Shown here piece after piece: positions 7,589 through 60,031 of a DNA stretch of 64,000 nucleotides (the stretch's first letter is position 1; every line of letters begins with the position of its first letter). Source of the stretch: an uncultured Rickettsiales bacterium (GTDB taxonomy: Bacteria; Margulisbacteria; Marinamargulisbacteria; GCA-2716485; CAZIFG01). A model generated the notes under the pieces. The model was not told where the DNA came from. It saw only the letters and a program-made list of their open reading frames with translations, and searched no databases. The position numbers and the translations under genes are program-made. The stretch covers positions 43,250 through 107,249 of the forward strand of contig CAZIFG010000004.1 of assembly GCA_964539135.1 (NCBI GenBank), given 5' to 3'.

Positions 7589-8223
7589 TTTCTTTAATTG
7601 TGACGGCCGCCGGAAAAGGCACGCGATTTGGAAACCCTGAAGGAAAACTCTTTGTCAGTTATAAGGGAAAGCCTCTATTGCAGCATACTCTAGAGGCCTT
7701 TAAAGACATCCCCGACATTTCGGAGTGCCTCATTACAGGATATGCAGGACAGATTCAGGCTATTCAAGATCTCTTAACGCAGATGCAATTGCCAATCCCT
7801 ACGCAGGTCATCGAAGGGGGAGAGTTGCGTGCCCAGTCTGTCCACAATGCAGTTAAACGCGCAACGCAGAATTGGGTACTTATTCATGATGGTGCGAGGC
7901 CCTTTGTGTCTGAACAGGTGATTCATAGGGTCTTAGCGGCTAAAGACACGGCAAAAGGGGTGATCCCCGGCATTCCAGAAACCGATACCATCAAATGGGT
8001 CAAAGACGGAGTTGTAGAGGCCAGTTTGGATCGCAGTCAGGTGATGCGTATTCAAACGCCTCAGCTATTTGAGACCGCCACGCTTTTAGCGGGGTATGAA
8101 ATAGACGGCTGGGAAGCCATGACAGATGAATCCATGAGTTTAGAAGAACTAGAAGTTCCTGTAAAAGTCGTCCTTGGAGACGCTAAAAACATCAAGGTTA
8201 CATACCCTGAAGATTTAACCTAA
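7585..8223 (+). CDS. ispD: 2-C-methyl-D-erythritol 4-phosphate cytidylyltransferase
   Basis: N-terminal VTAAGKGTRFG and IHDGARPF motifs. ATGA overlap with trpA. Confidence 0.9.
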   Translation: MISLIVTAAGKGTRFGNPEGKLFVSYKGKPLLQHTLEAFKDIPDISECLITGYAGQIQAIQDLLTQMQLPIPTQVIEGGELRAQSVHNAVKRATQNWVLIHDGARPFVSEQVIHRVLAAKDTAKGVIPGIPETDTIKWVKDGVVEASLDRSQVMRIQTPQLFETATLLAGYEIDGWEAMTDESMSLEELEVPVKVVLGDAKNIKVTYPEDLT

Positions 8224-8226
8224 TTT

Positions 8227-8367
8227 GGGACTGTTGTGAAATGCCCACGTTTGGATCATATGTAAGGTATTCCGAGTTCGAAAGCCCGGAGTTTATTGTA
8301 ATAAATGAGGACTTGAGGACGAGGATAACACAGCAGATGACCAAAATAGGCGTTTTGCAACAGTCCC
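8227..8367 (+). mobile_element. MITE-like palindromic element, copy 1 (141 bp)
   Basis: Termini are GGGACTGTTGTGAAATGCC ... GGCGTTTTGCAACAGTCCC. It is flanked by a perfect 5-bp direct repeat AATTT (8222-8226 and 8368-8372). It contains no ORF and starts 3 nt after the ispD stop. Confidence 0.8.
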
Positions 8368-8437
8368 AATTTAGGAAAGTAAGCGTTCAAAAATAACGAT
8401 ATTCCTCATAATCCCTCATAATAAGGACGGCTAAACC

Positions 8438-9022
8438 ATGTCATATCATAAAAAAATGATTGCAGCGAGAAAATCTACAAAATACAATGCCTTTATGACA
8501 ACTTTTTGTCAGGCCATAGGCATAAAAACAGAAAAGGCTAAAGGCGATTTGCATGACAATTTATCGATAGTGGTACAGATTATGCTAAAAGTACCGGAGT
8601 ACACAGGGGCTTCCGAGCGTGTCAAAAGATTATTAACGCCTGGGAATCTGGATGTCAGTCTGGAGTCAGAGCGCATTGATATGAAATGGCTGGCAGGAAG
8701 ATGGGTAAAACAGGATGGCATGAACTTAAAAAACGTATCGGATCATCTCCAAAATAATTTTGAAATTGTAATGTGGGCATTAGATCAAAATCCCAAAAGT
8801 TTTCAGTATGCATCTCAACGTTTGAGGGATTCAGGCAATGTAGCCAGTAAAGCCGTTCGTTTAGATGGCCTAAATTTAAAATGGGTGGGCGAATACTGTA
8901 AAAAAAGTGAGCACATTATTGTAGCGGCACTCCAGCAAAATCCAGAAAGTAAGGCCTTCATTTTAGAAGAGATGAAAAAAAATAAAACAGTTAAAGAGGC
9001 GCTAAAGAGGTTAATTAGTTAA
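8438..9022 (+). CDS. DUF4116-like repeat protein (orphan)
   Basis: Repeats of the pattern G.nLk.v...l....e.v..Al.qNp.sfqYAS (FQYASQRLRD..., AVRLDGLNLKWVG...IIVAALQQNPES). The 3' end overlaps the rpoN 3' end by 12 nt (convergent). Confidence 0.55.
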   Translation: MSYHKKMIAARKSTKYNAFMTTFCQAIGIKTEKAKGDLHDNLSIVVQIMLKVPEYTGASERVKRLLTPGNLDVSLESERIDMKWLAGRWVKQDGMNLKNVSDHLQNNFEIVMWALDQNPKSFQYASQRLRDSGNVASKAVRLDGLNLKWVGEYCKKSEHIIVAALQQNPESKAFILEEMKKNKTVKEALKRLIS

Positions 9023-21767: not shown

Positions 21768-22039
21768 GGGGATAACGTATTGTGTTCTCTTAATAAATCA
21801 TATTTAAATTTAATCGAAGCCGAGACTTGAAAGAGAAAGGGTTTTTGGCTAAAGTGAAAGTGTTTAATTCCACAATATTATATGCATTTGCAGCAGCGGC
21901 AGCCGCCCCTTTTCCTAATGATGACGCGTTATTAACAAAATTATAGCCTAAACACGACTGGAACAGTTGGAAGATTATGCTGAAGATTAGTATTTATTTT
22001 TCATGAAATTTTATTTATTTTTTTACGATGATAAAAGGT

Positions 22040-22176
22040 GGGGCTGTTGCGAAATGCCTACGTTTGGATCATATGAAAGGCATTCCGAGTCCGAAAGCTC
22101 TTATATATCATAAATGAGGACTTGAGGACGAGGATAACACAGCAGATGGCCAAAATAGGCATTTCGCAACAGTCCC
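22040..22176 (+). mobile_element. MITE-like palindromic element, copy 2 (137 bp)
   Basis: GGGGCTGTTGCGAAATGCCTA ... TAGGCATTTCGCAACAGTCCC gives 21 bp of TIR, perfect except for one position. The right half is nearly identical to copy 1. The track ORF 22108..22473(-) is read-through of this repeat. Confidence 0.8.
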
Positions 22177-22240
22177 AAAATAGCAATGGGATGCGGTTTT
22201 AGATAGTATCATTCTGCAGAATCTTAGGAGCGCCTTATTT

Positions 22241-24589
22241 ATGAATATTACGCGAAAAGTAATTTCGCTTCGCAGTCGTAGTCGCCGTAGAAAAAAATCT
22301 AAGCAGCAGTCTTCTTTAGCAAATCGCAGTTGGAACGCACTTAGATGGGCCCTAAAAGGTGTTATACTCACAAGTCTTGGGGTCATTGTGGGGGGGAGCG
22401 GGAGTGGCGTGCCTAGAAAATTTGGTGAAAATTCATTCCCACAATGTAATCCCCTCGCAGTGTTGCCCGACAATTATCGCATGCCTTTGCCTCTCATGGA
22501 TATAGAGTTGCCTGCGGATTCACGCTATATTACTTACGCCAATATGGATGTATTTCACGGGAGTGTTTATGCCCATACAGGTTGCCCCAAATATGGGGTT
22601 TACGTCTTTCAAAACGTCGGTTCTTTTTATGGATCCTTTTATGAAAATACCAAATTGAAAGAGGGCACCATGTTTTTTTTGAACGGAGAGGTCTTTAAAG
22701 GCACCTTTCATGAAAGTACAGGCGATAAAAAAGAAGGCACTGTAACCTACGCGGATGGCACATCAAAAACCGGATCCTTCGAGGCCTATACCAATGTATT
22801 TACACCATACCAATCATACAAAGTTAAGGCAGCTATAGTTGGATTGTTAGGGGGTGCGTTTGCGATCTATAAATATGGGCGCATGCTCAATTTGGCTCGT
22901 GTATTAGATCCCATTCGAGAGTGGCAGAAAAGACGAATGCAAGCCCAACAGAAACGCACTGTTGAAACTGAACAAGGAAAATTGGACAGAAAAGTGGAAA
23001 GATATAAAGAAAAACTGAATCTAACGCTTCAGGAAGGACTTCAAGATTTTGGTATTGCTTTAAATAATCAGGGGGTACTGGAATGGCCTCATCCTCAAAA
23101 CGGATTTATCATACTCCACTACCAAGGAAGTCCTGTTTTTGTGACTGAAAAAGCGAGAGCTTACATACAGGAGAGGATTCAAACCTATAGAAGAAACTGT
23201 ATAAAGGCTATTGATAGTGTTTCCATTACACCTCAAGAGACGCGTTGTCTTGGTATAGAAGCGAAATTTAAATCTGCACTTGAAAAACTGCTTCAGGATA
23301 AAGACGTCCTATTAAAGAAAGCTAGAGAAAGAGTCAGAGCTCTGAATGTTCATGACCTGTTTAAGGTTCAAGGTCTCTCTATGCATTTCGTGCAAGAAAC
23401 AGCACGGATGAATCTGAGGGCCACTAAAACCCCCATCAACTATGATGGGGTTTTCGTTTCAACCCTAGCGCTACTGAAGTCAAAACTGCCTAAAGGTCAC
23501 GGGATGTCCCCTATTAAAGCGGCCTTTAACGGTATTTATGGGGCGGATGCTATCCAGACGCTGCTTGAGGCTCAGCTTACCGCTGAAGAAACACTGCAAA
23601 CTGCTCGAGATAATTTAGACCATCTACTCCATGTATTAAACACCTCTGTGGAGACCCCTTTAGGCGGAGACCTTCCCGCTCTTACCTTACAAGTCCATGA
23701 GGCAAATGCCGTATTTCTGACAGAAAAAAACAATTACGACGAGATTTGCAACAGATTAAACGAGTCTCAGCGCCAGGCTTTGAAGTTGATCTCGACGCTA
23801 AGCCTACAGGATCTTGACCGTTTAGAAAGTGAGTCCACTCACGATGCCATTGCATTTCTACGCGAAAATTTTACATTCGCTGAACATAGAAGAATAAAAA
23901 TAGGAGATGCTGCATCGGGCGCTGGTCATGGCACTTCCGATTCTGTTGAAGATCCTGGAACACCCTGTTCTCCTAGATTTAGTTTGAGTGCCTCAGAACC
24001 GGTGACGCTAAGGGATCTCTGTTTTTCAATGTCAGATCATCTTAATGCCAGCGGTTTTGTATTTGTACCGTTCGTGCCAGGTGCGCGTAGTGATATCAAC
24101 GCTTTAATGTCGTGTCACTTTGGATTTTTTGCGCTGGCCTTAAGACTTACGCCTAATCTAATGGGGATTATTCAACAGAGACAGACCGCAAAGTTACAGC
24201 ATGAATCGTCGTTTTTTTTATATCACGCACATGGCGATAGATCTACTTTTTTACAGGGAAAAAAACATCGGGAATTAACGACTGCTGGATATCCAGAAGA
24301 TCTATTGAGAACCCCCCTGAATCTCTCTATTTCCTCATTTATCCATGAAGGCTTAGCACGAATTAATGCCTTTGCTATCGACAAAAGTCTGGAGCCTATA
24401 GACTTACCCCCTGAGAAACTGCACTTAATGGGGGATTACATTCAGCGTCATGGAAGAGAGATTCAAGCGCGATCTGGAGGCTCTCACTCTAAATGGGTAG
24501 CGCCTTTCGCATGGCCTCTCGATGTGAGTTCGGAGCGAGACCTAAAAAGTATTTATATAGGATTGTTTATATTCATGCGTTGTCGATAA
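22241..24589 (+). CDS. Large orphan membrane-anchored protein with MORN-like repeats
   Basis: 782 aa. It has a basic N-terminus (RSRSRRRKKSK) and a TM segment. The repeats fit Y/F-x-G-x-F...G (GVYVFQNVGSFYGSFYEN..EGTMFFLNGEVFKGTFHES..EGTVTYADGTSKTGSFE). A long coiled-coil-like region follows. Confidence 0.6.
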   Translation: MNITRKVISLRSRSRRRKKSKQQSSLANRSWNALRWALKGVILTSLGVIVGGSGSGVPRKFGENSFPQCNPLAVLPDNYRMPLPLMDIELPADSRYITYANMDVFHGSVYAHTGCPKYGVYVFQNVGSFYGSFYENTKLKEGTMFFLNGEVFKGTFHESTGDKKEGTVTYADGTSKTGSFEAYTNVFTPYQSYKVKAAIVGLLGGAFAIYKYGRMLNLARVLDPIREWQKRRMQAQQKRTVETEQGKLDRKVERYKEKLNLTLQEGLQDFGIALNNQGVLEWPHPQNGFIILHYQGSPVFVTEKARAYIQERIQTYRRNCIKAIDSVSITPQETRCLGIEAKFKSALEKLLQDKDVLLKKARERVRALNVHDLFKVQGLSMHFVQETARMNLRATKTPINYDGVFVSTLALLKSKLPKGHGMSPIKAAFNGIYGADAIQTLLEAQLTAEETLQTARDNLDHLLHVLNTSVETPLGGDLPALTLQVHEANAVFLTEKNNYDEICNRLNESQRQALKLISTLSLQDLDRLESESTHDAIAFLRENFTFAEHRRIKIGDAASGAGHGTSDSVEDPGTPCSPRFSLSASEPVTLRDLCFSMSDHLNASGFVFVPFVPGARSDINALMSCHFGFFALALRLTPNLMGIIQQRQTAKLQHESSFFLYHAHGDRSTFLQGKKHRELTTAGYPEDLLRTPLNLSISSFIHEGLARINAFAIDKSLEPIDLPPEKLHLMGDYIQRHGREIQARSGGSHSKWVAPFAWPLDVSSERDLKSIYIGLFIFMRCR

Positions 24590-39539: not shown

Positions 39540-39581
39540 AATGGCGATATTCTATCAGCTTAAAAATAGAATAACAATAAT

Positions 39582-40571
39582 GAGACTGTTGCGACATGCC
39601 TACGTTTGGATCAGACAGATGGCTTTGGAATGAGATGTTGGTAGGCCTTTTGAACCAGCATAAAGACATATGCATCTCCTCCTTTATCAGGATGGTGTTG
39701 AAGCATTAATGCTTTGTAGGCACGTTTAATCGTATTGACAGAGGCGGTGGAAGGAAGGCTGAGAATACGAAAGGCTTTTGCATCAGTCATTTCTGGTGGA
39801 TCCAATGGAGACATAAATTCGGAGACAAAAGGAAGGGCAGAGGGAACGCCATAATGAGTGATGCCAAGTGTGACAAGATCAGGAGCAGCTGTGCGTGTCG
39901 CCTTATAATGCCAGGATAAATCACGTGGCGGCGTAAATTCATGAACCCCATAAGCACGGTCAACACCTTTGCGAACGATAGGATCTATAATAGACTTGGT
40001 TAAAAAGACAAAAGAAACCAACATAAAGGTAAGAAAGAGCGTTTCCGGGGTAGCCTCATGGAGGGCATGGCCGAGGTAGGCAATAAACACGGCAACTTTA
40101 AAGGCCGGATGTGTTGGGGGGGGTGCTGAAGGCGAGGTAAGGGCATCAATATCTGTTCTAAGTGTGGGGCGACTGGATAACACATAGGCAGAAGACGATA
40201 AAAAAATCTGCTTTAAGGCAGAGAGTCGATCTGTAAAAATACGAACTTCATAAGGGGGGATCCCGCCTTTATAGTGAGACAGCATCTTAAGGTGCCGAGA
40301 AAAACTATCAAATAAAGCATCACATTTGAAGTCCTTATAAGTTAGTTTTGCCCGTTCAGTAAGATCCTTCAAAGTCGGGGTTCTATTTCCCCCTTCCAGC
40401 ATAAAAAAGGAAAGCAAGGTTGAAATATAAAGCTTTTCAAGCTCAGAATAGGATTTAGATTCACAAACAGGGGCTAAAGAAAGGACTTTAAACATAATCG
40501 GCTCCTAGAAAGTTTCGTTATTCTTATTTGGGTTATCGAGATTTGGAATAAAATAATTTCACAACAGTCTC
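39582..40571 (+). mobile_element. 990-bp composite version of the repeat family. Matching TIR ends enclose one passenger ORF (the J-domain protein).
   Basis: The left end at 39582-39614 is GAGACTGTTGCGACATGCCTACGTTTGGATCAG. The right end at 40540-40571 is ...GGAATAAAATAATTTCACAACAGTCTC. Both tips carry the same variant, GAGAC/GTCTC. The flanking 5-mers are ATAAT and ATATT. Confidence 0.65.
39611..40495 (-). CDS. Orphan membrane protein with a C-terminal J domain (DnaJ-like, HPD motif)
   Basis: C-terminus FRILSLPSTASVNTIKRAYKALMLQHHPDKGGDAYVFMLVQKAYQHL. There is a central hydrophobic segment, and AGGAG lies 6 nt upstream of the ATG. The stop codon lies in the left repeat end. Confidence 0.65.
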   Translation of the reverse strand: MFKVLSLAPVCESKSYSELEKLYISTLLSFFMLEGGNRTPTLKDLTERAKLTYKDFKCDALFDSFSRHLKMLSHYKGGIPPYEVRIFTDRLSALKQIFLSSSAYVLSSRPTLRTDIDALTSPSAPPPTHPAFKVAVFIAYLGHALHEATPETLFLTFMLVSFVFLTKSIIDPIVRKGVDRAYGVHEFTPPRDLSWHYKATRTAAPDLVTLGITHYGVPSALPFVSEFMSPLDPPEMTDAKAFRILSLPSTASVNTIKRAYKALMLQHHPDKGGDAYVFMLVQKAYQHLIPKPSV

Positions 40572-40574
40572 ATA

Positions 40575-40603
40575 TTGGTGATACGTCGTATTTATGGCAT
40601 AAT
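40575..40603 (+). promoter_or_regulatory. Candidate promoter of rseP (TTGGTG-17-CATAAT)
   Basis: -35 at 40575-40580 and -10 at 40598-40603. The rseP ATG (40613) is 9 nt after the -10 and has no SD. The -35 begins 3 nt after the repeat end. Confidence 0.4.
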
Positions 40604-44748: not shown

Positions 44749-45684
44749 TTAGGCTGCGGTAATCTTTTTTAAAACCTCAGATAACTTAAGGGTATCTGTG
44801 GCATGTTGTTTGACCATATGGTGGGAAGGTGCGTATTTTTTTTGAAAAAAGGATTTCCCCCATTTTTTATGGTGAGCTAAAAAAAAGACATAATAATGAA
44901 CACTCATAGAATTTTGAGTAAGCTGGTGTGCAAGAGAATGAGAGAGATCTAAGACCGCTTCTTTTTGACTCAAAGGAGCGGGTTTTAAAAGAAGGGCATC
45001 CATGCCAGACAGTAGGTCCTGAAACTGGGAAATAGAAGCGGATAAAATAATGGTTTTAGCCGTATCAATGAGGTGAGTTAAACATTCGAGTTGAATCGCG
45101 AATAGGGCCTCAACAGTTGATTTCCACGCGGGTAATCTAAACAGAGTTTGAATTGCATGGGTATTCGATGTTAGAATCAAGGTCAGTCCAATAATCGCAT
45201 ATTGCCGGTGTTCCAGGGGATCTTGAAGCTTGAGGCTCTCTTTTAAAGCTTGCATCAAGAGGAGAGATAAATCAGGCGGATTGGGATATTTACAGGCGCC
45301 CACAAGGATCAGTAAAATATCGCGCTTTTTAGATAGATTAGAGGTAGTCGTATAAATTTTGATGAAATTTTTAAGTGTAGACAGTGCTTTTTGACTGAGA
45401 ACGGTAGGGGTTAGCTGTCTCTCTAGGCGTTTAAGTCCATCTTCATTAAAATTAGAGGGGATGTGGTGTGCAGGGTCTGGAAGATCGTCAATGGAAACAA
45501 GCGGAACAGATTCAATAAAAGAGGGAATGCCAACAGAATCATACGGGGGTAGAGACGCATCAGATTCTACCTGATCCAGTGCAGAGTGAATACGTTTACC
45601 AAATTCTTCCTTTGATTTTTTCTGTTTCTGATCCCTTTTTCGGGAATTGAGACGATAAATATCGCCTGAAATGCCGGATACCAT
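44749..45684 (-). CDS. Orphan hypothetical protein (311 aa, helical-repeat-like)
   Basis: ORF with a strong SD (GAAGGAGG, 5 nt upstream of the ATG). It begins 18 nt from repeat copy 4. No recognisable motif. Confidence 0.5.
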   Translation of the reverse strand: MVSGISGDIYRLNSRKRDQKQKKSKEEFGKRIHSALDQVESDASLPPYDSVGIPSFIESVPLVSIDDLPDPAHHIPSNFNEDGLKRLERQLTPTVLSQKALSTLKNFIKIYTTTSNLSKKRDILLILVGACKYPNPPDLSLLLMQALKESLKLQDPLEHRQYAIIGLTLILTSNTHAIQTLFRLPAWKSTVEALFAIQLECLTHLIDTAKTIILSASISQFQDLLSGMDALLLKPAPLSQKEAVLDLSHSLAHQLTQNSMSVHYYVFFLAHHKKWGKSFFQKKYAPSHHMVKQHATDTLKLSEVLKKITAA

Positions 45685-45701
45685 AGGACCTCCTTCATTA
45701 T

Positions 45702-45843
45702 GGGACTGTTGCTAAACGCCTATTTTGGCCATCTGCGGTGTTATCCTCGTCCTCAAGTCCTCATTTATGATATATAAATTCAGGGCTTTCGGACTAGCAC
45801 TGCCTTGCAGCTGATCCAAACGTATGAATTTCCCAACAGTCCC
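45702..45843 (-). mobile_element. MITE-like palindromic element, copy 4 (142 bp, inverted orientation)
   Basis: The reverse complement aligns over its full length to copies 1, 2 and 5. The flanking 5-mers are ATTAT and ATCAT. Confidence 0.8.
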
Positions 45844-45915
45844 ATCATACTAAACATGGAATATGTTAAGTAGTTACGCTTTAACTGTACATCAGGAAGA
45901 GAGAGGAGTCAAAAA

Positions 45916-57988: not shown

Positions 57989-58552
57989 TTAATTATAAAA
58001 AAGGCTTTGAGGAATTCTAACTTTAACATAAACGTCATAGTTATTGTAGGCCTCGAAATGAGGGGTAATTTGAATGCCCAATTGAACATTATAGTCTTTT
58101 AAAAGGCCTAAGAAACCCAATCCTGATACATGATCGGACTCAAAGGATTTTTCAAGCTGTTCAAAAAACAACGTTTCAATATCGCTTCTTTCTTTAAGAA
58201 CCTGAACAAATTGAGACAGATTGAATGCATTTTTTTCTTGGGTAGTATTAACCGTTTCAATTAAGATATCGCCATGATCGAGAACAATAGAAAGGGTGAC
58301 GAGTCGATTTTGATCAATAGAATATTTGATGGCATTTTCTAAAAGCTCATTGGCAATGGTGGATAAAATATTTCGGGCCTGATCATTTTGGGCATAAGGG
58401 TGGCTGTCGTCCTGAGATAAGAAATCAGACAGCGTACTGCATTGAGACCAATCTTTCATCAGCTCTAAGGGGAGTATAAAATTTTTACTGACGCTATTTT
58501 CAGCAAGAATCTCATTTTTTTCATATAAACCGTAACGCGTTTCAGTCGGCAT
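57989..58552 (-). CDS. Small orphan protein with a GHKL (HATPase_c) N-box-like motif, possibly an anti-sigma/SpoIIAB-like regulator
   Basis: ANELLENAIKYS resembles the N-box ExxxNAxKY/H. A glycine-rich segment SGLGFLGL follows. No clear DxGxG motif. Confidence 0.4.
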   Translation of the reverse strand: MPTETRYGLYEKNEILAENSVSKNFILPLELMKDWSQCSTLSDFLSQDDSHPYAQNDQARNILSTIANELLENAIKYSIDQNRLVTLSIVLDHGDILIETVNTTQEKNAFNLSQFVQVLKERSDIETLFFEQLEKSFESDHVSGLGFLGLLKDYNVQLGIQITPHFEAYNNYDVYVKVRIPQSLFYN

Positions 58553-58626
58553 AAAAACCTCCGCAAAGTATTAATAAGGAGAGTACCCACAAAAGAAATG
58601 GATTAAACCTGGGATTCAGGCCCTCT

Positions 58627-58760
58627 GGGACTGTTGCGAAAGTCCTATGTTTGGATCAGCTGCAAGGCATTCCGAGTTCAAAAGGCCTTATATATCATAA
58701 ATAAGGTAAGGACGAGGATAACACAGCAGATGGCCAAAATAGGCGTTTCACAACAGTCCC
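58627..58760 (+). mobile_element. MITE-like palindromic element, copy 5 (134 bp)
   Basis: Full-length alignment to the other copies, with a 6-7 nt internal deletion. The flanking 5-mers are CCTCT and CCTTT. Its right end contains the last codons and the stop of rarA. Confidence 0.8.
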
Positions 58761-60031
58761 CCTTTATTTTTGAGAGATCTGTAATAGTCCAAGCGCTTTA
58801 AAATACTGGCTTCGTAGCCACGATTAGAGGGGGTATAAAAAGAAGGGCATCCAGGCGCATACACTTGGTCACAAATGGCATGCTCATAATCATGAGGATA
58901 GAGGTAAGGGGCAGACGAAAGTGCTTCTGCAGATAACGGTCTATGGGAATCTCGAAGATACTCGGGCATAGAATAAGGTGTGGTTTTAACATACTGAAGT
59001 GCCTGATTAATGGCCACATAGGCGGCATTGCTTTTGGGCGCCGCAGCAAAATAAGTGGTGACCTGGCTAAGCGGGATGCGAATTTCAGGCATGCCTACAA
59101 AGCGGGCGGTTTCAAGAAGTGCGCTGGCAAGCACTAAGGCATGAGGATCAGCATTGCCAATATCTTCGGAAGCAAAAATAAGAAGGCGCCGGACAATAAA
59201 AAGGGGATCTTCACCCTGATGCAGCAATTGCGCTAAAAAATAAAGCGCAGCATCGGGATCCGAACCCCGCATGCTTTTAATATAAGCCGAAATTAAATCA
59301 TAATGGTCATCATCGCGAAGGCCTTGACCTGTTTGTAAGGGGAGTGTATTGAGATAGTCCACAGATAAAGTGGTGTCTGTGCTCGAAAGATGGGCCAGTT
59401 CGATGATGTTAAGTAGAGACCGCGCATCACCCTGCGCATGAGAAACACACCAGTCTATAGCCTCTTGTGAAAGCGTGAGTCCCAAGTTTTGGGTTGCTTT
59501 TTGAGTGAGGGTTTCCAGATCTTCTTTTTGAAGCGGATGAAGTTCAAAAATATGGCAGCGCGAAATGAGACCTGAAATCACAGAAAAAAAAGGATTTTCA
59601 GTCGTGGCCCCAATAAGAGTTAAGAGACCAGATTCGACGCTGGGCAACAGAACGTCTTGTTGTGTTTTGGTGAAGCGGTGAATTTCATCAATAAAAAGAA
59701 GGGAGCTTTGCCCCAGGCTGGCATGATGTGTGGCTTCAATCTGTATTTTTTTTAAATCCGATATACTACCCGTGACGGCATTTAGGGCCACAAAATGGGA
59801 CTGTGTGCTGATAGAGAGCAATCGGGCAAGAGACGTTTTACCGCATCCAGGGCGTCCCCAAAGAATCATAGATAAAAGCTGTTTGCGTTCTATCATACGG
59901 CGAATCGGGCCCTTAGGGCCTAAAAGATGCTGCTGACCGACGTAATCCTCCAGTTTAGAAGGACTGAGCCTATACGCAAGTGGCGATGGCTTTTGAGTCT
60001 GAAACAAAGAGGGCGTATCGTGAAAAGACAC
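58748..60031 (-). CDS. rarA: Replication-associated recombination protein A (RarA/MgsA)
   Basis: AAA+ Walker A GRPGCGKTS, Walker B LFIDEIHRF, and a MgsA C-terminal domain. Confidence 0.9.
   Translation of the reverse strand: MSFHDTPSLFQTQKPSPLAYRLSPSKLEDYVGQQHLLGPKGPIRRMIERKQLLSMILWGRPGCGKTSLARLLSISTQSHFVALNAVTGSISDLKKIQIEATHHASLGQSSLLFIDEIHRFTKTQQDVLLPSVESGLLTLIGATTENPFFSVISGLISRCHIFELHPLQKEDLETLTQKATQNLGLTLSQEAIDWCVSHAQGDARSLLNIIELAHLSSTDTTLSVDYLNTLPLQTGQGLRDDDHYDLISAYIKSMRGSDPDAALYFLAQLLHQGEDPLFIVRRLLIFASEDIGNADPHALVLASALLETARFVGMPEIRIPLSQVTTYFAAAPKSNAAYVAINQALQYVKTTPYSMPEYLRDSHRPLSAEALSSAPYLYPHDYEHAICDQVYAPGCPSFYTPSNRGYEASILKRLDYYRSLKNKGGLL

What the first reader, a model, noticed from the sequence alone, without database searches (positions are those of the whole stretch)
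8227..8367. Unannotated family of ~135-142 bp terminal-inverted-repeat elements with 5-bp flanking duplications (Tn3-derived MITE hypothesis)
Five loci share the same ends, consensus GGGACTGTTGCGAAATGCCTA ... TAGGCATTTCGCAACAGTCCC. About 21 bp of the inverted repeat is near-perfect, and it extends imperfectly to about 32 bp. The loci are 8227-8367 (+), 22040-22176 (+), 45702-45843 (-), 58627-58760 (+), and a split copy at 39582-39614 / 40540-40571. None contains an ORF and all lie in intergenic DNA or at gene 3' ends. The 5 nt on each side form direct repeats: AATTT/AATTT (perfect), ATTAT/ATCAT, CCTCT/CCTTT and ATAAT/ATATT (4 of 5), and AAGGT/AAAAT (3 of 5). Long TIRs that begin with GGG, combined with 5-bp AT-rich target duplications, are the hallmark of Tn3-family ends, and non-autonomous Tn3-derived miniature elements (TIMEs) are known. 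That assignment is inference, since no transposase gene is in this window. Two subfamilies are visible in the left half: ...GGATCATATG(A/T)AAGG versus ...GGATCAGCTGCAAGG.
Basis: partly seen in the sequence, partly recalled or inferred. Interest (0 to 1): 0.65.

Follow-up and report, generated by a model that had tools for sequence, protein, structure and literature searches.

The report
IS5-type miniature transposons, not Tn3
The repeats are real miniature "jumping gene" remnants (MITEs) with 5-bp target duplications, but their ends match those of IS5-family insertion sequences, not Tn3 transposons, so this is an ordinary kind of element in an uncultivated bacterium.

Summary
The window contains four 134-142 bp copies, 84-90% identical to each other, and one 990-bp unit. 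All are bounded by GGGACTGTTGCGAAA-type inverted ends (9 matches to the 21-mer against 0 expected). Exactly 5 bp is duplicated at the flanks: 20 of 25 positions match against about 6.5 expected, and no other length works.

The Tn3 assignment does not hold. The ends share 4 of 16 bases with the Tn3 repeat. They share 13-16 of 16 with the ends of 1.2-1.4 kb insertion sequences found in metagenomes, which encode 320-331 aa IS5-family DDE transposases. The same end sequence, GAGACTGTTGCA, is published for ISPg4 (IS5 family) and MITEPgRS of Porphyromonas gingivalis.

A scan of JGI metagenomes with the end sequence found 36 further short elements of 100-232 bp. Of these, 25 have perfect 5-bp duplications. 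Two full-length relatives also show perfect 5-bp duplications.

No transposase lies in the window or in the roughly 9 kb of flanking DNA recovered. The rest of the host genome could not be reached, so the cognate element in this organism remains inferred. There is no Rfam match and no compensatory base-pair change.

The 990-bp unit carries an orphan J-domain gene between matching ends and may be a mobilised cassette.

Verdict: a new member of a known kind, of low to moderate interest.

The parts
8227..8367 (+). MITE copy 1, 141 bp. Flanking 5-bp duplication AATTT at 8222-8226 and 8368-8372 (5 of 5). The left duplicate overlaps the ispD stop codon.
22040..22176 (+). MITE copy 2, 137 bp. Flanks are AAGGT at 22035-22039 and AAAAT at 22177-22181 (3 of 5). 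It lies 65 nt upstream of the 782-aa ORF at 22241-24589.
45702..45843 (-). MITE copy 3, 142 bp. Flanks are ATTAT at 45697-45701 and ATCAT at 45844-45848 (4 of 5). It lies 17 nt upstream of the start codon of the 311-aa gene (44749-45684, minus strand), just before that gene's AAGGAGG ribosome-binding site, and downstream of the UPF0102 (yraN-like) gene.
58627..58760 (+). MITE copy 4, 134 bp. Flanks are CCTCT at 58622-58626 and CCTTT at 58761-58765 (4 of 5). Its right end supplies the last codons and the stop codon of rarA (58748-60031, minus strand). The insertion replaced the reconstructed C-terminus PESQV with GLL.
39582..40571 (.). 990-bp unit bounded by inverted ends of the same type, GAGACTGTTGCGACAT... 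and ...ATTTCACAACAGTCTC. Both ends carry the same G-to-A change at position 2. Flanks are ATAAT at 39577-39581 and ATATT at 40572-40576 (4 of 5). The left roughly 45 nt are homologous to the left end of the MITE; only about 16 nt (imperfectly up to about 30) of the right end are. It is a candidate non-autonomous cassette carrying a passenger gene.
   Evidence: (I20)
39611..40495 (-). 294-aa ORF filling the 990-bp unit. It has a C-terminal J domain with an HPD motif (Pfam DnaJ, E = 3.5e-10) and a hydrophobic middle region. Outside the J domain it has no homologue among 5.8 billion proteins apart from itself. It shows no similarity to the IS5-type transposase. Its stop codon lies within the left-end homology of the unit.

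Best explanation
These are non-autonomous DNA transposons (MITEs) derived from, and moved in trans by, an insertion sequence of the IS5 family. That IS belongs to a clade on the IS5/IS1182 border with 320-331 aa DDE transposases.

Proposed mechanism. The transposase binds the 20-30 bp terminal inverted repeats (GGGACTGTTGCGAAAYGCC...). It then excises or copies the element and inserts it at a 5-bp staggered cut. Repair of the staggered cut leaves the 5-bp duplication.

History in this genome. The four 134-142 bp copies are old. They differ from each other by 10-16%, and their duplications have decayed to a similar degree. They are fixed in every sampled strain. They sit in tolerated positions: intergenic DNA or the last few codons of a gene. 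The 990-bp unit is most simply one insertion of the same element type whose interior is a passenger gene.

Shown: the repeats, the 5-bp duplications, the multi-copy nature, and the association of this end sequence with IS5-type transposases elsewhere.

Inferred: that such a transposase is or was present in this host, and that it moved these copies.
For: 1. The ends are far beyond chance: 9 matches against 0 expected.

2. The duplication is exactly 5 bp. Twenty of 25 flank positions match; the null mean is 6.5 and 0 of 20,000 random placements reached 20. All other lengths and offsets are at background.

3. Seven ends of short-read (Logan) contigs, from four sequencing runs, fall inside copies. 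This is the usual behaviour of a multi-copy repeat.

4. A scan of JGI metagenomes with the 19-nt end pattern gave 50 loci. Thirty-one of them hold 36 short paired elements of 100-232 bp. At k = 5, 87% of flank positions match, against 25-40% at other k, and 25 of 36 duplications are perfect. The interiors are unrelated to the window's copies; only the terminal 19-32 nt are shared. That pattern fits a protein-binding end.

5. The same ends bound full-length insertion sequences.
- L137 141-1378 is 1238 bp with ends GGGACTGTTGCGAAAC. Its right end matches the window MITE's right end at all 16 of the first 16 bases (19 of 21). It encodes a 331-aa protein with DUF772 + DDE_Tnp_1, scoring 146 bits against the NCBIfam IS5_4 cut-off of 140.
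- Its homologues number 1871 at E <= 1e-30, named 'IS5 family transposase' by the sources that name them. In every case examined they are flanked by G[GA][GC]NCTGTTGCGAAA.
- All 19 sampled homologues hit the IS5_4 and IS1182 models.

6. Two full-length relatives in longer contigs have perfect 5-bp duplications: L143 with TACTA and L168 with ATATT.

7. Published IS5-family ends are of the same type: ISPg4 GAGACTGTTGCA/CGCAACAGTCTC, MITEPgRS GAGACTGTTGCA, and ISNme1 (PMC4596501).
Against: - No transposase gene or remnant lies in the 64-kb window or in about 9 kb of extension (tblastn; profile search). The rest of the host genome could not be searched, so the cognate IS in this organism is not shown.
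- Several full-length IS contigs show no matching duplication (L137 1 of 5, L161 2 of 5, L160 3 of 5, and most P0072/P0085 contigs). These are 1.2-5 kb metagenome contigs of a multi-copy IS. Contigs that share a left flank have different right flanks, which suggests chimeric assembly, but this is an excuse and not a proof.
- From my memory of the ISfinder table, the classical IS5 group makes 4-bp duplications, so 5 bp is atypical for that group.
- The GG...CTGTT...AAA motif is also the hallmark of IS6-family ends (PMC7986276). The IS26 end shares 12 of 16 bases. End similarity alone is therefore not family-specific.
- No presence/absence polymorphism was seen among strains that are 99.75-100% identical.
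Confidence: 0.8

Rival explanations
1. Tn3-derived miniature elements (TIMEs), moved by a roughly 1000-aa Tn3-family transposase.
For: The 5-bp, mostly AT-rich duplications and ends that begin with GGG are both typical of the Tn3 family. TIMEs make 5-6 bp duplications (PMC4133298).
Against: The ends share 4 of 16 and 5 of 21 bases with the Tn3 repeat. The conserved repeat is about 21 nt and does not end in the inner ...TAAG block of Tn3-type 38-bp repeats (block recalled from memory). Every full-length element found with these ends is 1.2-1.4 kb and has a single IS5-type gene. None has a Tn3 transposase or a resolvase inside the element. TIMEs are about 262 bp and usually single-copy. This family has 5 elements in 64 kb.
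Confidence: 0.03
2. MITEs derived from an IS6/IS26-family element, whose ends also read GG..CTGTTGCAAA.
For: The IS26 end shares 12 of 16 bases. The IS6 family review notes conserved GG tips with cTGTt and caaa, and lists two IS6 MITEs (PMC7986276).
Against: IS6-family elements make 8-bp duplications. Here k = 8 is at background and k = 5 is sharp, both in the window and in 36 metagenome elements. No IS6-type transposase was found next to these ends, whereas IS5-type ones were, repeatedly.
Confidence: 0.03
3. A genuine MITE whose mobilising transposase belongs to some other family, or to an undescribed one. On this reading the resemblance to IS5-clade ends is convergence or end capture.
For: The partner in the host genome is unseen. 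The end motif is shared by at least two transposase families. Gut-metagenome contigs carry the same ends around deleted genes that resemble the longer IS5_1/ISNCY_1 models.
Against: Identity to the L137 right end extends beyond the shared motif (16 of 16 and 19 of 21, then TA(A)TTTT). The 5-bp duplication also matches two full-length members of the IS5 clade.
Confidence: 0.1
4. A conserved structured RNA or palindromic regulatory element (REP- or terminator-like) that is not mobile.
For: Each copy folds into a single rod-like hairpin of -50 to -65 kcal/mol, with z-scores of -4.8 to -10. The strand corresponding to the '+' orientation of the element folds better than its complement.
Against: There is no Rfam match. 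Among 46 predicted pairs, none shows a compensatory change, and the covariation term is unfavourable. No terminator-like or promoter-like site lies inside copy 3. The flanking 5-bp duplications and the unrelated genomic contexts are signatures of insertion. Relatives share only the termini and not the interior. Orientation relative to transcription is 3 to 1, which is not significant.
Confidence: 0.03

Closest known systems
ISPg4 (IS5 family) and MITEPgRS/MITE464 of Porphyromonas gingivalis (PMC4596501; PMC2575886)
   Same: The terminal repeat GAGACTGTTGCA / CGCAACAGTCTC is the same sequence type. It equals the first 11 nt of the 990-bp unit's left end and 10 of the first 12 nt of the window MITE consensus. 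The relationship is also the same: short non-coding elements share their ends with an IS5-family IS and occur at about 10-20 copies per genome.
   Different: The interior sequence is unrelated. MITEPgRS carries internal tandem repeats, which are absent here. The host is an uncultivated lineage, not Bacteroidota. The duplication length of ISPg4 was not found in the papers read. The relationship between the ISPg4 transposase and the L137 clade was not tested.
ISNme1 and ATR elements of Neisseria meningitidis, and IS5-derived MITEs in general
   Same: Short AT-rich elements whose ends (GAGACCTTTGCAAAA) match an IS5-family IS that has been proposed as their parent on the basis of the ends (PMC4596501).
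   Different: The end sequence differs at several positions, and there is no interior similarity.
[quoted passage not shown]
   Same: Non-autonomous, 5-6 bp AT-rich duplications, a hairpin-forming transcript, and the ability to form larger units that carry passenger genes (TIME-RES, TIME-COMP).
   Different: TIMEs have 38-bp Tn3-type repeats, are about 262 bp, are mostly single-copy and occur in Pseudomonas. The ends here are unrelated (4 of 16) and are associated with IS5-type transposases.
Mobile insertion cassettes (MICs, e.g. MIC231 of Bacillus cereus; from memory). Relevant to the 990-bp unit only.
   Same: IS-type inverted ends and a target duplication enclosing a passenger gene, with no transposase.
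   Different: Mobilisation of the 990-bp unit has not been shown. Only one copy is known, and its right end retains only about 16 nt of the repeat.
IS6/IS26 family ends (PMC7986276)
   Same: GG tips, CTGTT and (C)AAA blocks; 12 of 16 identity to the IS26 end.
   Different: IS6 elements make 8-bp duplications and use a different transposase that works through cointegrates. Here the duplication is 5 bp.

Membership tests
Bacterial MITE (generic) | Short (about 50-1000 bp), no transposase gene | tested here: met
   The copies are 134-142 bp. They contain no ORF of 60 aa or more and no transposase similarity.
Bacterial MITE (generic) | Terminal inverted repeats | tested here: met
   21 nt near-perfect, extending imperfectly to about 36 nt.
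Bacterial MITE (generic) | Target-site duplication of fixed length | tested here: met
   5 bp, with 20 of 25 positions matching and no random placement in 20,000 reaching that. In 36 related elements, 25 duplications are perfect.
Bacterial MITE (generic) | Multiple dispersed copies | tested here: met
   Five elements in 64 kb in unrelated contexts. Short-read contigs break inside copies. The genome-wide count could not be obtained.
Bacterial MITE (generic) | Empty sites in related genomes, or insertion polymorphism | tested here: inconclusive
   All available strains are 99.75-100% identical and carry the copies. The nearest other relative has 52% RarA identity.
IS5-family-derived MITE | [quoted passage not shown] | tested here: met
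   13-16 of the first 16 nt are identical to the left ends of six different ISs and to most of their right ends (11-12 of 16 for the L143 and L160 right ends). Their genes have DUF772 + DDE_Tnp_1 and hit NCBIfam IS5_4. The published ISPg4 end is of the same type.
IS5-family-derived MITE | Cognate autonomous IS present in the same genome | not testable with these tools
   None lies in the window or in about 9 kb of extension. The host genome is absent from the searchable collections, and look-ups are limited to proteins encoded in the window.
IS5-family-derived MITE | Same duplication length as the autonomous IS | tested here: inconclusive
   Perfect 5-bp duplications flank L143 (TACTA) and L168 (ATATT), and L153 shows 4 of 5. 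Other full-length copies are unmatched in short contigs that may be chimeric.
IS5-family-derived MITE | 4-bp duplication, as in the classical IS5 group (ISfinder table, from memory) | tested here: not met
   k = 4 is at background and k = 5 is sharp. This argues for a clade distinct from E. coli IS5, whose transposase is below 35% identical.
TIME / Tn3-family derivative | About 38-bp terminal repeats homologous to Tn3-family repeats | tested here: not met
   4 of 16, 5 of 21 and 7 of 30 identity to the Tn3 repeat (Tn3 sequence from memory). The definition comes from PMC4133298.
TIME / Tn3-family derivative | 5-bp (5-6 bp) target duplication | tested here: met
TIME / Tn3-family derivative | Autonomous partner with a Tn3-family transposase | tested here: not met
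   All full-length elements recovered with these ends carry one IS5-type gene and are 1.2-1.4 kb. The host genome itself could not be tested.
IS6/IS26-family derivative | 8-bp target duplication | tested here: not met
   k = 8 gives 15 of 40 in the window and 27% in the metagenome elements, which is background. The family feature comes from PMC7986276.
Curated structured RNA family | Rfam match, or covariation that supports a fold | tested here: not met
   Only a tRNA reaches an Rfam threshold in the window. None of 46 pairs shows a compensatory change.

The most novel reading that the evidence does not exclude
Two linked readings go beyond 'just another MITE'.

(a) The ends GGGACTGTTGCGAAA plus a strict 5-bp duplication may define an uncurated subgroup on the IS5/IS1182 border. 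Its transposases are at most about 43% identical to anything in the plasmid collection. It would have spawned many independent MITE lineages (100-232 bp) across uncultivated bacteria with GC contents of 32-67%.

(b) The 990-bp unit at 39582-40571 may be a cassette of this system that mobilised an orphan membrane J-domain gene. That would be a passenger-carrying non-autonomous element in a host lineage with no close sequenced relatives.
Probability: 0.3. Interest if true: 0.4.

Novelty: new member of a known kind. Interest (0 to 1): 0.25.

Why it matters
- Annotation. About 1.5 kb (2.4%) of this window is unannotated transposon-derived DNA. It has already reshaped gene ends, giving rarA a new C-terminus and stop codon. 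One copy sits 17 nt upstream of a start codon. The copies also break short-read assemblies of this organism.
- Classification. It shows that 'GGG ends plus 5-bp duplication' is not diagnostic of Tn3. An IS5-type clade gives the same signature, and the GG/CTGTT/AAA end motif is shared with IS6.
- Follow-up. If the 5-bp IS5 subgroup and its MITE radiation prove to be uncurated, the end pattern is a cheap probe for finding them in metagenomes.
- Overall. None of this opens a major question. MITEs derived from IS5-family elements are well known.

Tried and rejected
- Rfam scan of the whole window: only a tRNA.
- Right-end 27-nt pattern against the species-representative genomes and against JGI metagenomes: 0 hits each, so the host genome is in neither collection. 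The 19-nt end pattern against viral contigs also gave 0 hits.
- RarA-based search for relatives, hoping for empty sites: the best match is 52% identical, too distant.
- Search with a profile of MITE-encoded peptides, hoping that gene callers had called ORFs on other copies: nothing.
- Homologues of the 294-aa ORF: only itself and generic J domains. Cluster look-up gave no names. It shows no similarity to the transposase. The single-sequence AlphaFold model was unusable (mean pLDDT 38.6), so no fold search was run.
- Walking outwards from the window. The left side gained about 6.8 kb (L085). This holds only a weak end-like CACAACAGTCCC at L085 14821-14832, which the MITE profile did not detect. 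The right side gained about 2.1 kb (L089). The last ORF of the window was not on record.
- Strain polymorphism: none.
- Profile search for transposase remnants in the window: none.
- Literature search for the end sequence as a text string: only unrelated primer hits. Search for the run accessions: nothing.
- Plasmid collection, searched by protein. The nearest match is a Candidatus Bandiella IS at 43% identity, with ends GGGAGTGTTGCAAGA and unclear flanks (TTTGT/TGTTT). All other matches are below 35% identity.
- Integron attC site: considered and rejected. The core motifs do not fit, there is no array, and the duplications argue against it.
- Promoter and terminator scan around copy 3: nothing inside the element.

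Full report
**1. The observation**

- The 21-mer GGGACTGTTGCGAAATGCCTA, allowing up to 3 mismatches, occurs nine times. Dinucleotide-preserving shuffles give none.
- The 10-nt core, allowing up to 1 mismatch, recovers ten termini arranged as five inverted pairs. The only other hits are four obvious chance matches.
- Four pairs enclose 134-142 bp: 8227-8367 (+), 22040-22176 (+), 45702-45843 (-) and 58627-58760 (+). These align over their whole length at 84-90% pairwise identity.
- An nhmmer profile of the four copies scores them at E = 1e-42 to 1e-47 and finds no further copy in the window.
- The inverted repeat is near-perfect for 21 nt. It continues imperfectly, with two 1-nt indels, to about 36 nt.
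- The fifth pair, 39582 and 40571, encloses 990 bp.

**2. The flanking duplication**

The five flank pairs are exactly as reported. I compared the last k bases on the left with the first k bases on the right.

- At k = 5, 20 of 25 positions match. No other k from 2 to 10 stands out.
- Sliding the right flank by 1 to 4 nt in either direction drops the count to 2-10.
- In 20,000 random placements the mean was 6.5, and none reached 20.

The T before GGG and the A after CCC belong to the duplicated 5-mer. They are not part of the repeat. The copy at 58627, with flanks CCTCT/CCTTT, shows this because it ends ...CCC|C.

The imperfect duplications (5 mismatches in 25 position pairs) fit the 10-16% divergence between copies. 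These are old insertions.

**3. Evidence of multiple copies beyond the window**

The organism is known only from metagenomes. Contigs 99.75-100% identical to the window come from ENA ERZ3430527 and from Logan runs SRR7369911, SRR7369912, SRR7369924 and SRR17828886.

Seven ends of short-read Logan contigs, from four runs, fall inside MITE copies, at window positions 8298, 45742/45743, 58673 and 58732. That is the expected behaviour of a repeat with many genomic copies.

No strain lacks a copy at any site I could examine, so no empty site was obtained.

**4. What the ends belong to**

The host genome is not in the searchable genome or JGI collections. I therefore scanned JGI metagenomes with the end pattern itself, GGGACTGTTGYGAAAYGCC.

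- The scan returned fifty loci.
- Thirty-one of them contain 36 short elements (100-232 bp) with an inverted partner end.
- In those 36 elements, 87% of flank positions match at k = 5, against 25-40% at every other k. Twenty-five duplications are perfect. A few sites were seen twice, in different samples.
- The interiors are unrelated to the window's copies. Only the terminal 19-32 nt are shared.

This describes a superfamily of MITEs defined by a common transposase-binding end and a 5-bp stagger. It is present in contigs with GC contents of 32% to 67%.

One locus gave a full-length element. L137 141-1378 is 1238 bp.

- Its ends are GGGACTGTTGCGAAAC... and ...GGGCGTTTCGCAACAGTCCC.
- Its right end matches the window MITE's right end at all 16 of the first 16 bases, 19 of 21, and then continues TA(A)TTTT.
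- Its single gene encodes 331 aa with DUF772 + DDE_Tnp_1.
- That protein scores 146 bits on NCBIfam IS5_4, whose cut-off is 140.

The protein has 1871 homologues at E <= 1e-30. Those that are named are called 'IS5 family transposase'. All 19 that I sampled hit the IS5_4 and IS1182 models, and the DDE residues are invariant.

I fetched contigs for five of the homologues. Every one is bounded by the same type of end:

- GGCGCTGTTGCGAAAC (1363 bp)
- GGGTCTGTTGCGAAATG (1243 bp)
- GAGCCTGTTGCGAAATAGCC (found for two homologues)
- GAGACTGTTGCGAAAT

.

Identity to the window MITE over the first 16 nt:

| End compared | Matches of 16 |
|---|---|
| IS5-clade left ends and most right ends | 13-16 |
| L143 and L160 right ends | 11-12 |
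| IS26 end | 12 |
| E. coli IS5 end | 6 |
| Tn3 repeat | 4 |

The IS26, E. coli IS5 and Tn3 sequences were taken from memory.

The literature agrees. Table 2 of Klein et al. 2015 lists ISPg4 (IS5 family) with ends GAGACTGTTGCA/CGCAACAGTCTC. It lists the P. gingivalis MITEPgRS with GAGACTGTTGCA (PMC4596501).

**5. Duplication length of the autonomous relatives**

- L143, from an 18-kb contig, has a perfect TACTA on both sides of a 1239-bp IS.
- L168 is a more distant relative in a viral contig, with a transposase 41% identical and ends GAGAGTGTTGAAAT. It has a perfect ATATT.
- L153 has 4 of 5.
- Other full-length copies show no match (L137, L160, L161 and most P0072/P0085 contigs).

The unmatched copies are on 1.2-5 kb contigs of a multi-copy IS. 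Contigs that share a left flank carry different right flanks, so assembly chimeras are likely. I count this criterion as compatible but not settled.

**6. Why not Tn3, IS6 or an RNA**

*Tn3/TIME.* TIMEs are defined by 38-bp repeats homologous to Tn3-family repeats. They are about 262 bp and usually single-copy (PMC4133298). The repeats here are unrelated to Tn3's. Every autonomous relative is a small one-gene IS.

*IS6.* The IS6 family shares the GG/CTGTT/AAA motif but makes 8-bp duplications (PMC7986276). Here k = 8 is at background.

*Structured RNA.* Each copy folds into one long hairpin of -50 to -65 kcal/mol, with z-scores of -4.8 to -10. Any full-length palindrome does this. Against an RNA reading:
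- There is no Rfam match.
- None of 46 predicted pairs shows a compensatory change.
- There is no promoter-like or terminator-like site inside the copy I scanned.
- The duplications are insertion scars.

**7. The 990-bp unit**

- Its left 45 nt are homologous to the MITE's left end (nhmmer E = 9e-6).
- Its right end retains about 16 nt, with 14 of 16 matching.
- I estimate the chance of such an inverted 16-mer within 2 kb of an orphan left end at about 5e-4.
- Both ends carry the same G-to-A change at position 2, and the flanks match at 4 of 5.

The unit is almost filled by a 294-aa ORF on the minus strand.
- It has a C-terminal J domain (Pfam DnaJ, E = 3.5e-10, HPD motif present).
- It has a hydrophobic centre.
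- Outside the J domain it has no homologue among 5.8 billion proteins.
- It is not a transposase.
- Its GC content (43.7%) is close to that of the window (42.1%).

The simplest reading is a single insertion of a non-autonomous element that carries a passenger gene, comparable to a mobile insertion cassette. Two independent, decayed MITE ends around a resident gene cannot be excluded. I put the cassette reading at about 0.5.

**8. Effects on the host**

- Copy 1 inserted at the ispD stop codon. The duplicated AATTT includes the last two bases of TAA.
- Copy 4 inserted five codons before the end of rarA. It replaced ...PESQV with ...GLL and provides the stop codon.
- Copy 3 lies 17 nt upstream of the start codon of a 311-aa orphan gene, just before its AAGGAGG site.
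- Copy 2 lies 65 nt upstream of a 782-aa ORF.

All four positions are ones that selection tolerates. No regulatory role is shown.

**9. Verdict**

The family assignment changes from Tn3 to an IS5-family clade that makes 5-bp duplications.

This is a new member, in an unsequenced lineage, of a well-known kind of element. The main open point is the cognate transposase in this genome, which could not be reached with the tools.

Two points have modest novelty and are left open. One is whether the 5-bp IS5/IS1182-border clade and its MITE radiation are already curated in ISfinder. The other is whether the J-domain unit is a mobilised cassette.

Noticed in passing
window 39611-40495 (-): Orphan 294-aa protein with a C-terminal J domain (HPD motif), a proline-rich linker and two hydrophobic helices. 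It has no homologue outside the J domain among 5.8 billion proteins. It sits between pyrH and rseP, inside transposon-like ends. The AlphaFold single-sequence model was unusable (pLDDT 38.6).
   Followed up: partly
window 58748-58765 and 8221-8226: MITE insertions altered the ends of genes. The last residues and stop codon of rarA are MITE-encoded (reconstructed ancestral tail PESQV, now GLL). The ispD stop codon overlaps the duplicated 5-mer.
   Followed up: yes
L085 14739-14832 (about 6.4 kb beyond the left edge of the window, just after a PEPCK gene): A weak, degenerate end-like sequence (...CTATCACAACAGTCCC, with GGGCCTACTGTATAG about 90 nt upstream). It may be a decayed shorter relative. 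The MITE profile did not detect it.
   Followed up: partly
L097 4612-7718; L100 3442-4526; L115; L118 11944-12906 (gut and other metagenome contigs, GC 36-38%): The same end (GGGACTGTTGTGAAATGCCCAATAATTACGCAACGAGTTG) precedes an internally deleted IS5-like gene whose N-terminal and C-terminal parts are fused. The gene resembles the longer IS5_1/ISNCY_1 models. In L097 it is followed by an AAA-ATPase-like gene and a second end-like sequence in direct, not inverted, orientation.
   Followed up: partly
L104 1692-3279; L098; L109; L125: Some metagenome contigs carry two or three different-sized MITEs of this end type within 2-5 kb (for example 142, 121 and 181 bp in L104). This suggests very high densities in some uncultivated genomes.
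   Followed up: no
window 1-64000: GC skew is positive in almost every 4-kb bin (one bin at 48-52 kb is slightly negative), and AT skew is positive throughout, although genes lie on both strands. The window probably lies within one replichore.
   Followed up: no
whole window / host: The host has no close sequenced relative. The best RarA match in 185,579 species genomes is 52% identical ('MAG: bacterium Bpl_23'). Many of the next hits are Planctomycetota, Verrucomicrobiota, Kiritimatiellia or Victivallales, which hints at the PVC group. The window also encodes a DUF4116 protein (8438-9022) and an slr1658-family protein (57989-58552). An ARM-repeat protein lies just outside the window (L085 9534-11954).
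   Followed up: partly
L159 (Candidatus Bandiella woodruffii plasmid NZ_CP110821.1, locus about 1441-2650): This is the nearest transposase in the plasmid collection (43% identity, split into two ORFs). It sits in an IS with ends GGGAGTGTTGCAAGATGG / GGGAGCGTTGAAAGAT and flanks TTTGT/TGTTT, so its duplication length is unclear.
   Followed up: partly
End motif in general: The GG-CTGTTGC-AAA end motif is shared between this IS5-type clade and the IS6/IS26 family (12 of 16 with IS26), although the transposases and duplication lengths differ. Whether this reflects common ancestry of the ends or convergence was not examined.
   Followed up: no
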